Assembly: GCF_002854065.1 (NCBI RefSeq)
Contig: NZ_CP024147.1
DNA length: 64,000 nucleotides
Strand: one strand, 5' to 3'
DNA from: Escherichia coli
GTDB lineage: Bacteria; Pseudomonadota; Gammaproteobacteria; Enterobacterales; Enterobacteriaceae
Below are positions 48,001-51,000 of the stretch, piece by piece. Made by a program: the position numbers. The first letter of the stretch is position 1; each line of letters opens with the position of its first letter.

Positions 48001-51000
48001 AGCCATCCGTCATCCATATCACCACGTCAAAGGGTGACAGCAGGCTCATAAGACGCCCCAGCGTCGCCATAGTGCGTTCACCGAATACGTGCGCAACAAC
48101 CGTCTTCCGGAGCCTGTCATACGCGTAAAACAGCCAGCGCTGGCGCGATTTAGCCCCGACGTATCCCCACTGTTCGTCCATTTCCGCGCAGACGATGACG
48201 TCACTGCCCGGCTGTATGCGCGAGGTTACCGACTGCGGCCTGAGTTTTTTAAATGGCGGAAAATCGTGTTGAGGCCAACGCCCATAATGCGGGCGGTTGC
48301 CCGGCATCCAACGCCATTCATGGCCATATCAATGATTTTCTGGTGCGTACCGGGTTGAGAAGCGGTGTAAGTGAACTGCAGTTGCCATGTTTTACGGCAG
48401 TGAGAGCAGAGATAGCGCTGATGTCCGGCAGTGCTTTTGCCGTTACGCACCACCCCGTCAGTAGCTGAACAGGAGGGACAGCTGATAGAAACAGAAGCCA
48501 CTGGAGCACCTCAAAAACACCATCATACACTAAATCAGTAAGTTGGCAGCATCACCCAGATTGGTTTAATAATTTGTCTTTGTGAGTTAAATACATAATT
48601 TTATACTTGTGATGCAATGAGATTTTCCTTATTGTTGAACTGGCGAATATTGATTTTCCACCTATACTTACCTGGTGTAACCCCAATGATATCAGGTGGA
48701 TAATATGCCATACATATGTTCTATCATTTTGGTGTTGAACTCGTTTGATGTCCGAATTGGTAAAGAAGATATTTTGTTTAAAAAAGGAAGTGCTGTTCTC
48801 ATTGATTACAATTTGAAAGATTTTTTTTCATCAAATATAGATCATGTAATGATCGTAGATGTTGAAGAGAAAACAGTTAATGATTTCTTTAAAAGCAACA
48901 CACTCTCACCTTTTTCTGTAAGAAGGTTTTATCCGGCATACTTGATGGTGGAATGTGAAGATTTTTCATTGTTAAAGAACTTGATTGCATGCTTGAATTG
49001 TGATGGCAGAACTGTGGATTTTGTTAGAAATCAAATATCACTTGCATGTCTTGCTATCTTATCTTCAGAGAAAATAGTGCAAAGTTTTTTATTTGGATGT
49101 CTTAATAGTTTAGGAAGTAAAGTTAAGGCTATTATTCACACGGATATATCTGCAGCATGGAGACTTTGTGATATATCTTCAAGACTGTATCTGAGTGAAA
49201 GTCTGTTAAAAAGAAAATTAAAGCACGAAGGCTTATCATTTAGTAAATTAATTCTTGAAGAGCGAATGGTGATGGCGGAAAGGTTATTAAGCTACAATTT
49301 ATATTCTGTTGGAAAAGTTGCTGAGATATGCGGTTATGAAAACACGTCATATTTTGTAAGTGTTTTCAGAAGATATTTTGGTGTTCCTCCCCATCAATAT
49401 TCATCAAGATTTTTTTTAGAAAAAGACATGATGTAACGTGATGCGTTTTAATGATTTTGTAATTTTCGTATTTGATAATTGTATGCTGCTTTCAGCTACG
49501 CCAGAATAATCGCTGGCGTTTTTCTTTTTGAATAGATGTTCAAGCCTTACGCTAATGTAACTTCTATACCTTTCCTCTTCGTTCCGAACCGTGTACACCA
49601 TCCGTTATTTGCGGAGGTGAGGCGGTGATGCTGCCAACTTACTGATTTAGTGTATGATGGTGTTTTTGAGGTGCTCCAGTGGCTTCTGTTTCTATCAGCT
49701 GTCCCTCCTGTTCAGCTACTGACGGGGTGGTGCGTAACGGCAAAAGCACTGCCGGACATCAGCGCTATCTCTGCTCTCACTGCCGTAAAACATGGCAACT
49801 GCAGTTCACTTACACCGCTTCTCAACCCGGTACGCACCAGAAAATCATTGATATGGCCATGAATGGCGTTGGATGCCGGGCAACCGCCCGCATTATGGGC
49901 GTTGGCCTCAACACGATTTTCCGCCATTTAAAAAACTCAGGCCGCAGTCGGTAACCTCGCGCATACAGCCGGGCAGTGACGTCATCGTCTGCGCGGAAAT
50001 GGACGAACAGTGGGGATACGTCGGGGCTAAATCGCGCCAGCGCTGGCTGTTTTACGCGTATGACAGGCTCCGGAAGACGGTTGTTGCGCACGTATTCGGT
50101 GAACGCACTATGGCGACGCTGGGGCGTCTTATGAGCCTGCTGTCACCCTTTGACGTGGTGATATGGATGACGGATGGCTGGCCGCTGTATGAATCCCGCC
50201 TGAAGGGAAAGCTGCACGTAATCAGCAAGCGATATACGCAGCGAATTGAGCGGCATAACCTGAATCTGAGGCAGCACCTGGCACGGCTGGGACGGAAGTC
50301 GCTGTCGTTCTCAAAATCGGTGGAGCTGCATGACAAAGTCATCGGGCATTATCTGAACATAAAACACTATCAATAAGTTGGAGTCATTACCTGGGTGTTC
50401 ATCCCAATAAGTGATGAAAAATTAAACAGGTGTAAGTACGTCATCTGTCCGGTAAGCCCCCTAAGAGCCAAATTAAGTGAAGTTAAACGAAGACTGCCAG
50501 TTGTTACAGGAACGATGGCCTCTTTGCCAGGGCACTGCATTCAGTCATCTGTGCGCGTTACTCTAACTGGCACTCGAACGTCGGCGATGGGGTTACCGGT
50601 GGATCAGGCCGTTCCTGTGGCGTAAACGTTTTTATGTCAGTACCAACAGATTTACCACATTTATCATCTTAACAGTTTGAGTGTAAATGCAGGCTGCGTC
50701 GCAAAGGGAGGAAACTGAGTGGCGTGTTCAGTCTAAAAGAGGGTTGATGCCAGCATACAGGGCGAAGCTGGTCAACAAGTCAACATTAATATAATGGAAT
50801 ATTCGGAGAGAAACGTCAGGCAGTTGACCTTAAATGAACAGGAAGATACATCCCCAGGAAAATTAATGCTGGTGTAATAAATACACCAACATTAATCCGG
50901 TCTGATTATTAATCAGACAAATATCGTTAATTCGTCGAATTTTAAATCAACGTTTTTTCTTACGACCCTGAACGGCCTTAAAACGTGGATTAGATTTACA

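What the first reader, a model, noticed from the sequence alone, without database searches (positions are those of the whole stretch)
48557..49623. AT-rich AraC-family regulator isolated between two IS1 copies
A 243-aa AraC/XylS regulator resembling the AppY/AdiY/EnvY group is encoded in a roughly 1.1-kb AT-rich segment bounded by IS1 copy 3 (which has its own duplication) and IS1 copy 4 (which has none). It has no obvious target operon nearby, consistent with a horizontally acquired trans-acting regulator.
Basis: partly seen in the sequence, partly recalled or inferred. Interest (0 to 1): 0.4.

Follow-up and report, generated by a model that had tools for sequence, protein, structure and literature searches.

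The report
Phage-borne PatE-like AraC regulator, IS1-stranded
The gene is an intact but uncharacterised AraC-family regulator that lambda-like phages carry as cargo between their Q and lysis genes; here IS1 elements have destroyed most of the prophage around it, so it is an ordinary accessory gene, not a new kind of system.

Summary
A 243-aa AraC/XylS ORF (48705-49436, +) lies in a 31-34% GC segment. On its left is an IS1 with a 9-bp duplication (47789-48556). On its right is an IS1 without one (49624-50391).

The "isolation" is secondary. In six independent loci, including two isolated lambdoid phages, the gene is the last gene of a conserved cargo cassette: Q antiterminator, lipocalin (-), TudS/YbgA (+), AraC (+), holin. 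The cassette fills the Q-S slot that holds nmpC in DLP12.

In the window the prophage sits at thrW and is IS1-eroded. The right-hand IS1 starts 1 nt before the position of the holin start codon. It joins the gene to the matA-ykgL intergenic region.

The protein is not YdeO (127 bits against a cutoff of 348). Its clade is sister to the clade of the inferred PatE (53.6% identity, 100% bootstrap). The inferred PsrB comes next (39.6%), then GadW, AppY and YdeO (32-34%). AdiY and EnvY match only in the DNA-binding domain.

About 19% of complete E. coli genomes carry it, and dN/dS is 0.2-0.27.

The most likely function is inferred, not shown: a trans-acting activator feeding into gadE/hdeA acid resistance. 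It is a new member of a known kind, of low to moderate interest.

The parts
36913..36988 (+). tRNA-Thr(CGU) thrW, the attachment site at the left end of the prophage remnant
   Evidence: ARAGORN. This is the same site used by CP4-6 in K-12 and by Sp1 in O157 Sakai.
37003..38163 (-). Phage integrase ORF (386 aa), followed by early-left genes (exo, bet, gam, kil) up to about 42210
   Evidence: ORF list. Names come from the CUWW06 annotation of DNA 99.8% identical.
42197..42964 (-). IS1 copy that replaces the immunity and replication region (N, cI, cro, O, P are absent)
   Evidence: 100% identical to the other copies. In CUWW06 kil is directly followed by IS1 and then ylcH/ybcN.
43710..45726 (+). 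DLP12-like nin region: ylcH, ybcN, ninE, ybcO, rusA, ylcG and most of Q
   Evidence: 93.9% identical to K-12 DLP12 over 2017 bp. Homology ends 24 nt before the quuD stop codon.
45367..45744 (+). Late antiterminator Q gene
   Evidence: Pfam Phage_antitermQ, E 2.5e-51. RefSeq CDS in CUWW06.
45843..45876 (+). Terminator-like hairpin plus T-run between Q and the 3' end of the lipocalin gene (candidate tR' or bidirectional terminator)
   Evidence: Consensus scan.
45900..46424 (-). Cassette gene 1: Blc-like lipocalin (174 aa)
   Evidence: Pfam Lipocalin_2, E 7e-43. phrog_2809, E 1e-98.
46617..47576 (+). Cassette gene 2: 2-thiouracil desulfurase (TudS) domain fused to DUF1722/YbgA (319 aa)
   Evidence: Pfam PF04463 and PF08349, both E about 1e-40. 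phrog_3275, E 4e-227.
47780..48565 (-). IS1 (47789-48556) with its 9-bp target duplication CAGATTGGT. It is a simple insertion in the 351-bp intergenic region, 148 bp upstream of the AraC ATG.
   Evidence: Sequence read. With IS1 removed, the window flanks align collinearly with four intact loci.
48580..48607 (+). Promoter-like site TTGTGA-16-TATACT, retained between IS1 and the gene
   Evidence: Consensus scan, 9 of 12 matches. The total number of sites was near the shuffle expectation, so this is only a candidate.
48705..49436 (+). Cassette gene 3: the AraC/XylS-family regulator (243 aa), a PatE-like paralogue. SD AGGTGG lies at 48694-48699.
   Evidence: phrog_1450, E 3.5e-107.
49498..49529 (+). 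Intrinsic-terminator-like hairpin ACGCCAG...CTGGCGT plus T-run, 62 nt after the stop codon
   Evidence: Consensus scan. The hairpin is present in the minimum-free-energy fold.
49613..49623 (+). Last bases of the phage sequence: the ribosome-binding region of the holin gene essD. The holin gene itself is gone.
   Evidence: In XJ5.2 the match ends 1 nt before the essD ATG. Homology to DLP12 resumes 11 nt upstream of essD.
49624..50391 (+). IS1 without a target duplication: the junction of a deletion or rearrangement
   Evidence: Flanks differ. The right flank from 50394 matches K-12 position 311,820 in the matA-ykgL intergenic region at 96.9%.

Best explanation
The ORF is an intact accessory gene of lambdoid phages, an AraC/XylS-family activator. 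It is the last gene of a three-gene AT-rich cargo ('moron') cassette (lipocalin, TudS/YbgA, AraC). That cassette occupies the slot between the late antiterminator Q and the holin.

Shown:
- The prophage in this window integrated at thrW.
- IS1 then dismantled it. One copy replaced the immunity and replication region. One copy inserted, with a 9-bp duplication, 148 bp upstream of the regulator. A third copy marks a deletion that removed the lysis and structural genes and the chromosomal DNA up to the matA-ykgL intergenic region.
- The regulator survives with its Shine-Dalgarno sequence, a candidate proximal promoter and its own terminator.

Inferred mechanism:
- Like its full-length relatives PatE, PsrB, AppY, YdeO and GadW, the protein binds AT-rich promoter DNA through its two C-terminal helix-turn-helix motifs.
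- It then acts in trans on host promoters, most probably gadE, hdeAB and other acid-fitness-island genes. This would raise acid resistance and give the lysogen a fitness benefit.
- Its Rns/ToxT-like N-terminal domain provides dimerisation and possibly ligand control.
- Expression in a lysogen would come from its own promoter, probably H-NS-silenced because of the AT content. On induction it would come from Q-antiterminated late transcription, which is no longer possible in this remnant.
For: Phage cargo position.
- The order Q, lipocalin(-), YbgA(+), AraC(+), holin is found in CUWW06, XJ5.2, E. coli B ATCC 11303, phage IdasGreatGrand (99.2% protein identity), phage Lambda_ev203 (82.7%) and EP91A.
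- The flanks are homologous to DLP12, where the same slot holds nmpC.
- All three proteins hit PHROG families.

Family placement.
- Pfam HTH_18 and HTH_AraC score above their cutoffs.
- The best NCBIfam hit is YdeO over the full length, but far below the equivalog cutoff.
- Protein identity is 53.6% to Sakai ECs_0287 (inferred PatE), 39.6% to EDL933_RS10010 (inferred PsrB), 33.8% to GadW, 31.8% to AppY and 31.6% to YdeO.
- In the neighbour-joining tree the window clade is sister to the clade of the inferred PatE with 100% bootstrap.
- The DNA-binding domain is 72% identical to the inferred PatE. The first recognition helix, SESLLKRKLK, matches at 11 of 12 positions.

Structure.
- The AlphaFold2 model has pLDDT 91.4.
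- The best full-length fold matches are Rns, CsvR and ToxT (E 1e-11 to 1e-7).
- The DNA-binding domain superposes on the GadX domain at rmsd 1.0-1.2 A.

Selection and prevalence.
- dN/dS is 0.2-0.27.
- The gene occurs in 1039 of 5426 genomes.
- The exact protein is seen on at least 1000 contigs.

Literature.
- PatE and PsrB activate gadE and hdeA, and the Psr proteins repress type III secretion (PMC10877973, PMC8565820).
- AppY directly activates gadE (PMC10057817).
Against: - No target gene was tested, so the link to acid resistance rests only on homology. N-terminal identity to the inferred PatE is only 40%, and the second recognition helix matches at 10 of 14 positions.
- The assignments of ECs_0287 as PatE and EDL933_RS10010 as PsrB are inferred from island location. 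The primary papers were not available.
- Promoter-like sites in the region occur at about the rate seen in shuffled sequence (14 found against 10.7 expected).
- The IS1 148 bp upstream may have cut off the native promoter or activator sites. Two promoter-like sites now lie on the far side of it.
- The gene is strictly linked to the lipocalin and YbgA genes in all six loci, which suggests it may instead (or also) regulate them.
Confidence: 0.6

Rival explanations
1. It is a local regulator of its own cassette. The AraC protein controls the divergent lipocalin and TudS/YbgA promoters (46425-46616) and/or its own promoter, perhaps in response to a lipid or thionucleobase signal. It would have no important host regulon.
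For: The three genes stay together in the same order in all six loci examined, across about 18% protein divergence and in two free phages. AraC-family regulators commonly control adjacent genes (general knowledge). The N-terminal fold resembles the fatty-acid-binding regulators Rns and ToxT, and a lipocalin is a lipid binder.
Against: The closest characterised relatives (PatE, PsrB, AppY) have other neighbours and act on distant host genes (PMC10877973, PMC10057817). No convincing shared operator-like repeat links the cassette's intergenic regions. The best repeat (17 of 20 matches) is at chance level.
Confidence: 0.22
2. In this particular strain the copy is a silent relic. It is intact by sequence but not expressed, because IS1 cut it off from upstream promoters, the prophage can no longer make Q-dependent late transcripts, and H-NS silences the AT-rich DNA.
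For: IS1 lies 148 bp upstream, with two promoter-like sites now on the far side of it. The immunity and pR region is deleted. GC is 31-34%. The arrangement is recent and rare: 1 of 5426 genomes has the right junction, and the IS1 copies are 100% identical.
Against: The coding sequence is identical to a protein seen on at least 1000 contigs. A proximal promoter-like site, the SD and the terminator are retained. The roughly 95 bp closest to the ATG, which are conserved even in the divergent ev203 allele, are untouched.
Confidence: 0.15
3. IS1-AraC-IS1 is a composite transposon, like Tn9 or Tn1681, that moved the regulator to this place.
For: Two identical IS1 copies in inverted orientation flank a 1067-bp passenger.
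Against: The outer flanks are not a duplication (CAGATTGGT against TGGGTGTTC). The left IS1 has its own duplication on both of its sides. The passenger is collinear with the adjoining phage DNA once that IS1 is removed. The junction occurs in one genome only, and the four hits in the plasmid collection are records 0.28-4.9 Mb long, all typed non-mobilizable and apparently chromosomal DNA filed as plasmids, whose flanks were not examined for IS1.
Confidence: 0.02

Closest known systems
PatE (Z0321, OI-8/CP-933H of E. coli O157:H7; taken here as Sakai ECs_0287)
   Same: It is a prophage-encoded AraC-like protein of similar length (247 against 243 aa). Identity is 53.6% over the full length and 72% in the DNA-binding domain, and the first recognition helix is nearly identical. 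Its clade is sister to the window clade with 100% bootstrap. Its prophage is also integrated at thrW.
   Different: PatE-clade genes sit after the tail-fibre genes at the prophage right end (Sakai Sp1, phage mEp332), not in the Q-S slot. They lack the lipocalin/YbgA partners. The N-terminal domain is only 40% identical. PatE's role (activating gadE, hdeAB and gadBC; repressing LEE genes) has been tested, but no function has been tested for this gene.
PsrA/PsrB (prophage-encoded secretion regulators of O157:H7; PsrB taken here as EDL933_RS10010)
   Same: It is a prophage AraC-like regulator that also lies just downstream of the late antiterminator and before the lysis genes. It aligns over the full length and belongs to the same supported clade (90% bootstrap).
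   Different: Identity is only 39.6%. Its neighbours are tRNA genes, TerB and NanS-p rather than lipocalin/YbgA. No AraC homologue was found in CP-933N/Sp6, where reviews place PsrA.
AppY (DLP12), GadW and YdeO of E. coli K-12
   Same: All share the full-length architecture, including the conserved N-terminus MxxxCS, at 32-34% identity. AppY is also prophage cargo. All three feed into gadE and acid resistance (PMC10057817).
   Different: YdeO membership fails: 127 bits against the 348-bit equivalog cutoff. GadW and YdeO are chromosomal. AppY sits at the far right end of DLP12.
AdiY, EnvY and GadX
   Same: They share the AraC DNA-binding domain at 41% identity. The GadX domain structure superposes on the model at about 1 A rmsd.
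   Different: The N-terminal domains are only 13-14% identical in the multiple alignment. BLAST aligns only the C-terminal domain of AdiY and GadX, while EnvY aligns more widely (residues 43-235) but at just 29%. All three fall outside the clade in the tree.
Rns, CsvR and ToxT (virulence regulators with solved full-length structures)
   Same: They are the best full-length fold matches (Foldseek E 1e-11 to 1e-7). All have a two-domain architecture with a beta-rich N-terminal domain.
   Different: Identity is 16-20%. TM is only about 0.4-0.44 with rmsd about 15 A, which indicates a different domain arrangement or a shorter N-domain. The fatty-acid pocket residues were not examined.
nmpC in K-12 DLP12 and stx in Stx phages (cargo in the Q-S slot)
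   Same: They occupy the same insertion slot between Q and the holin. The flanks are homologous to DLP12.
   Different: The cargo differs: a regulator plus a lipocalin plus a TudS/YbgA enzyme, rather than a porin or a toxin.

Membership tests
AraC/XylS transcription factor family | C-terminal DNA-binding domain of about 100 aa with two helix-turn-helix motifs | tested here: met
   Pfam HTH_18 54.9 bits (cutoff 33.6) and HTH_AraC 44.1 bits (cutoff 26.6). The modelled domain superposes on GadX 3mkl at TM 0.91-0.94 and rmsd 1.0-1.2 A.
YdeO (NCBIfam NF007407 equivalog) | Whole-protein score at or above the curated cutoff of 348 bits | tested here: not met
   127.3 bits. The alignment is full-length but identity is only 31.6%.
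   AppY aligns over the full length at 31.8% and lies inside the 99%-supported clade. AdiY aligns only over the C-terminal 117 aa, EnvY at 29% from residue 43, and both form the outgroup.
PatE/Psr prophage-encoded AraC-like regulators | Encoded on a prophage or phage | tested here: met
   It lies in the Q-S slot of lambdoid prophages and of two isolated phages. It hits phrog_1450.
PatE/Psr prophage-encoded AraC-like regulators | Full-length sequence homology and monophyly with PatE/PsrB | tested here: met
   53.6% to the inferred PatE and 39.6% to the inferred PsrB, with clade support of 100% and 90%. The identity of the reference proteins is inferred from their island location.
PatE/Psr prophage-encoded AraC-like regulators | Activates gadE/hdeA and increases acid resistance; represses LEE/type III secretion | not testable with these tools
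   This needs expression, ChIP or EMSA, and acid-survival assays. Only the conservation of the recognition helices was checked.
Phage moron (cargo gene unit) | Inserted between genes that are adjacent or differently filled in related phages | tested here: met
   DLP12 homology stops 24 nt before the end of Q and resumes 11 nt before essD. K-12 has nmpC in that interval.
Phage moron (cargo gene unit) | Base composition different from the surrounding phage genes | tested here: met
   GC is 0.31-0.34 against 0.50-0.54 in the nin/rusA region.
Phage moron (cargo gene unit) | Own promoter and terminator | tested here: inconclusive
   The terminator hairpin plus T-run at 49498-49529 is clear. The promoter-like site at 48580-48607 is a 9-of-12 match, and the number of sites in the region equals chance.
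IS1 composite transposon (Tn9/Tn1681 type) | Target-site duplication flanking the whole IS1-passenger-IS1 unit | tested here: not met
   The outer flanks are CAGATTGGT and TGGGTGTTC. The left IS1 carries its own duplication.
Rns/ToxT fatty-acid-responsive regulators | Fatty-acid pocket between the N- and C-terminal domains with basic anchoring residues | not tested
   Only fold-level similarity was obtained (Foldseek E 1e-11, TM about 0.44). No residue-level structural alignment was available.

The most novel reading that the evidence does not exclude
The conserved Q-S cassette may be a single lysogenic-conversion module in which the regulator is ligand-controlled. Its Rns/ToxT-like N-terminal domain would sense a fatty acid or lipid whose availability is shaped by the co-carried Blc-like lipocalin. 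The regulator would then switch host acid-stress or envelope genes accordingly. That would be a phage-delivered sensor-regulator pair, present in roughly one fifth of E. coli genomes and so far unstudied.
Probability: 0.1. Interest if true: 0.55.

Novelty: new member of a known kind. Interest (0 to 1): 0.27.

Why it matters
Prophage-encoded AraC-like regulators (PatE, PsrA/B, AppY) are known to rewire acid resistance, type III secretion, motility and biofilm formation in E. coli. This gene is an unnamed sister lineage of PatE. It is carried by about 19% of complete E. coli genomes, including E. coli B, and by isolated temperate phages. It always travels with a lipocalin gene and a TudS/YbgA gene.

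If it also drives gadE/hdeA, it would be a common, phage-transmissible modifier of acid tolerance that current annotation labels only as a 'helix-turn-helix domain-containing protein'.

The IS1 architecture itself is routine genome decay. It matters mainly because it explains the loss of the lysis and structural genes and of the pao-ecp-matA region in this lineage.

Tried and rejected
1. Locating PsrA. Reviews place it at z1789 on OI-50/CP-933N. I fetched Sakai Sp6 and EDL933 1.62-1.67 Mb. tblastn with nine AraC-family queries found nothing, so PsrA could not be compared.
2. Primary papers. Those on PatE, PsrB and PsrA (PMC3416394, PMC4288888, PMC7099609) are not held. NC_002655 is not in the collection. 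The PatE and PsrB assignments therefore rest on reviews plus island position.
3. Plasmid carriage. The four 'plasmid' hits are records 0.28-4.9 Mb long, all typed non-mobilizable, and appear to be chromosomal DNA filed as plasmids. I dismissed them.
4. Composite-transposon reading. Rejected on the target-duplication pattern.
5. Non-coding RNA in the interval. Rfam shows nothing near its thresholds. The 3' flank folds no better than shuffles apart from the terminator (z = -1.6).
6. Shared operator search inside the cassette. The best direct repeat (17 of 20, after Q and upstream of the AraC gene) is about what chance gives in 2.2 kb of AT-rich DNA.
7. Literature by protein accession and by 'moron/lambdoid/AraC/lipocalin'. 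Nothing was found on this gene.
8. The minus-strand 61-aa ORF at 49416-49601 has no support and overlaps the terminator region.
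Full report
**Observation**

The interval 48557-49623 lies exactly between two IS1 copies.
- The left copy (47789-48556, minus orientation) is flanked by a direct 9-bp repeat, CAGATTGGT (47780-47788 and 48557-48565).
- The right copy (49624-50391, plus orientation) has unrelated flanks, AGGTGAGGC and TGGGTGTTC.
- Both copies are 100% identical to each other and to a third copy at 42197-42964. A fourth copy is split by an IS3-family element.

The interval has 31-34% GC. It holds one convincing ORF, 48705-49436 (+), of 243 aa.
- A Shine-Dalgarno AGGTGG precedes the ATG by 5 nt. The alternative GTG start listed by the ORF finder lies inside that SD.
- The N-terminus MxxxCS is shared with YdeO, GadW, AppY and the inferred PatE.
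- Pfam HTH_18 and HTH_AraC both score above their gathering cutoffs in the C-terminal 100 residues.

**Genomic context**

The gene is not without context. A megablast against 5426 complete E. coli genomes finds the segment in 1039 of them, at many different chromosomal coordinates. Of these, 350 match at 99% or more, 246 at 95-99% and 434 at 80-90%.

Six loci were inspected:
- CUWW06, which is nearly identical to the window
- XJ5.2
- E. coli B ATCC 11303
- EP91A
- the isolated phage IdasGreatGrand
- the isolated phage Lambda_ev203

In all six the order is the same: antiterminator Q, lipocalin (minus strand), TudS-DUF1722/YbgA protein, the AraC protein, then holin, endolysin and spanin.

Comparison with K-12 DLP12 defines the slot. 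Homology runs through ylcH, ybcN, ninE, ybcO, rusA and ylcG and stops 24 nt before the end of Q. It resumes 11 nt before essD. In K-12 the interval holds nmpC. This is the classic lambdoid Q-S cargo slot.

All three cassette proteins match PHROG families of unknown function. The AraC gene is followed by a clean hairpin plus T-run (49498-49529). It is preceded by a candidate promoter, which is unproven because the scan was at chance level.

**What happened in this window**

- thrW lies at 36913-36988, followed by an intact integrase ORF and the exo-bet-gam-kil genes.
- An IS1 then takes the place of the immunity and replication genes.
- Next come the nin region, Q and the cassette.
- IS1 copy 3 is a simple insertion into the 351-bp ybgA-AraC intergenic region. 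With it removed, the window aligns collinearly with the intact loci.
- IS1 copy 4 begins 1 nt before the position of the essD start codon. Its far side matches K-12 position 311,820 in the matA-ykgL intergenic region.

So an IS1-mediated deletion, or recombination between IS1 copies, removed the lysis and morphogenesis genes. It also removed whatever chromosomal DNA lay between; in K-12 that stretch holds pao, yagU, ykgJ, ecpEDCBA and matA.

This junction exists in only one of 5426 genomes, CUWW06. The window differs from CUWW06 only by IS and island content. The 'isolation' is thus a recent, lineage-specific accident.

A composite-transposon origin is excluded by the duplication pattern.

**Family placement**

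- The best NCBIfam hit is YdeO over the full length. At 127 bits against a 348-bit cutoff, the protein is not YdeO.
- BLASTP gives 53.6% to Sakai ECs_0287. That is the only AraC-type gene of prophage Sp1/OI-8, where reviews place PatE.
- It gives 39.6% to EDL933_RS10010, an AraC-type gene just after the antiterminator of a prophage in the OI-57 region, where reviews place PsrB.
- It gives 33.8% to GadW, 31.8% to AppY and 31.6% to YdeO, all over the full length.
- GadX and AdiY align only in the DNA-binding domain, and EnvY aligns from residue 43 at only 29%.

A bootstrapped neighbour-joining tree gives four nested results:
- The window clade is sister to the clade of the inferred PatE (100%).
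- Together they join the inferred PsrB clade (90%).
- AppY, GadW and YdeO join next (99%, excluding GadX).
- AdiY and EnvY form the outgroup.

The DNA-binding domain is 72% identical to the inferred PatE. The first recognition helix matches at 11 of 12 positions and the second at 10 of 14. The N-terminal domain is only 40% identical.

The full-length family is narrow. Among 1.84 billion representatives, only ten 50%-identity clusters score E of 1e-30 or better.

Names in public databases are generic, for example 'araC-type regulatory protein from bacteriophage origin'. The exact protein occurs on at least 1000 contigs, and one member of its 90%-identity cluster is from E. albertii.

**Structure**

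An AlphaFold2 model built from a 38-sequence alignment is confident (pLDDT 91.4, pTM 0.85).
- Residues 1-82 are beta-rich with two helices.
- A helical linker follows.
- Residues 136-242 form the seven-helix AraC DNA-binding domain.

Foldseek against the PDB ranks Rns, CsvR and ToxT first (E 1e-11 to 1e-7, full-length alignments). TM is only about 0.44 with rmsd about 15 A, so the domain arrangement or N-domain size differs. The GadX DNA-binding domain matches at rmsd 1.0-1.2 A. Sequence search of the PDB agrees.

**Selection**

Nei-Gojobori dN/dS between the window allele and alleles 82-86% identical in protein is 0.2-0.27 (dS 0.31-0.59). The protein is therefore maintained by purifying selection.

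**Mechanism**

Shown: the gene is phage cargo, an intact AraC-family protein under purifying selection, sister to the clade of the inferred PatE, and here stranded by IS1.

Inferred: every characterised full-length relative converges on the acid-fitness island.
- PatE and PsrB activate gadE and hdeA, and the Psr proteins thereby repress type III secretion (PMC10877973, PMC8565820).
- AppY directly activates gadE, gadY and nhaR (PMC10057817).
- YdeO and GadW are part of the same network (established knowledge).

Given the near-identical first recognition helix, the most likely role is a trans-acting activator of gadE/hdeA-type promoters that benefits the lysogen in acid. I put about 0.5 on that specific regulon and about 0.95 on the identification as a prophage-cargo PatE-family regulator.

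The main rival is local control of the co-inherited lipocalin and TudS/YbgA genes.

A separate question is whether this copy is expressed at all. IS1 sits 148 bp upstream, and the prophage can no longer produce Q-dependent late transcripts.

**Verdict**

This is a new, uncharacterised member of a known kind of prophage regulator, sitting in a routine IS1-decayed prophage. Interest is low to moderate.

Noticed in passing
window 45900-47576, and L002, L003, L014, L015, L018: A Blc-like lipocalin and a fused 2-thiouracil-desulfurase (TudS) + DUF1722/YbgA protein always accompany the AraC gene in the Q-S slot of lambdoid phages. All three belong to PHROG families of unknown function. In XJ5.2 and E. 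coli B an IS3 has inserted into or next to the ybgA-like gene.
   Followed up: partly
window 49624-50400 compared with K-12 297-312 kb (L016): The IS1 deletion junction implies that this lineage lacks the region between the thrW prophage and ykgL. In K-12 that region carries paoABCD, yagU, ykgJ, the E. coli common pilus operon ecpEDCBA and its regulator matA. ykgL itself is annotated as frameshifted in CUWW06.
   Followed up: partly
window 25934-27962: An IS1 inserted in the yafP-like GNAT gene is itself split by a 1256-bp IS3-family element (26569-27824, with OrfA/OrfB resembling IS911). This nested insertion is absent from CUWW06.
   Followed up: partly
window 42965-43626: A 662-bp segment next to IS1 copy 2 is absent from CUWW06 and from the other fetched loci. 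It encodes a 102-aa ORF (43023-43331) with a lipoprotein-type signal (…LAGC).
   Followed up: no
window 36989-37003 compared with L013 26122-38500: CUWW06 carries a roughly 12.5-kb P4-like satellite island and an IS2 between thrW and the lambdoid integrase. The window has the lambdoid integrase intact directly next to thrW, so the two strains differ in tandem occupancy of thrW.
   Followed up: no
L009-L011 (Sakai Sp6; EDL933 CP-933N region): No AraC-family homologue was detectable by tblastn in the prophage where two reviews place psrA (z1789, OI-50). Either the locus tag or island assignment in the reviews does not map onto current assemblies, or psrA lies in another prophage copy.
   Followed up: partly
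L014 2888-2907 and 4843-4862 (window equivalent about 47769-47788, continuing after the IS1 at 48566): A 17-of-20 direct repeat (TATCATATAACAGCTTGTTT / TATAATATAACAGATTGGTT) links the region just after Q (expected pR') with the exact spot upstream of the AraC gene where IS1 inserted. By my estimate this is about what chance gives in this AT-rich DNA.
   Followed up: partly
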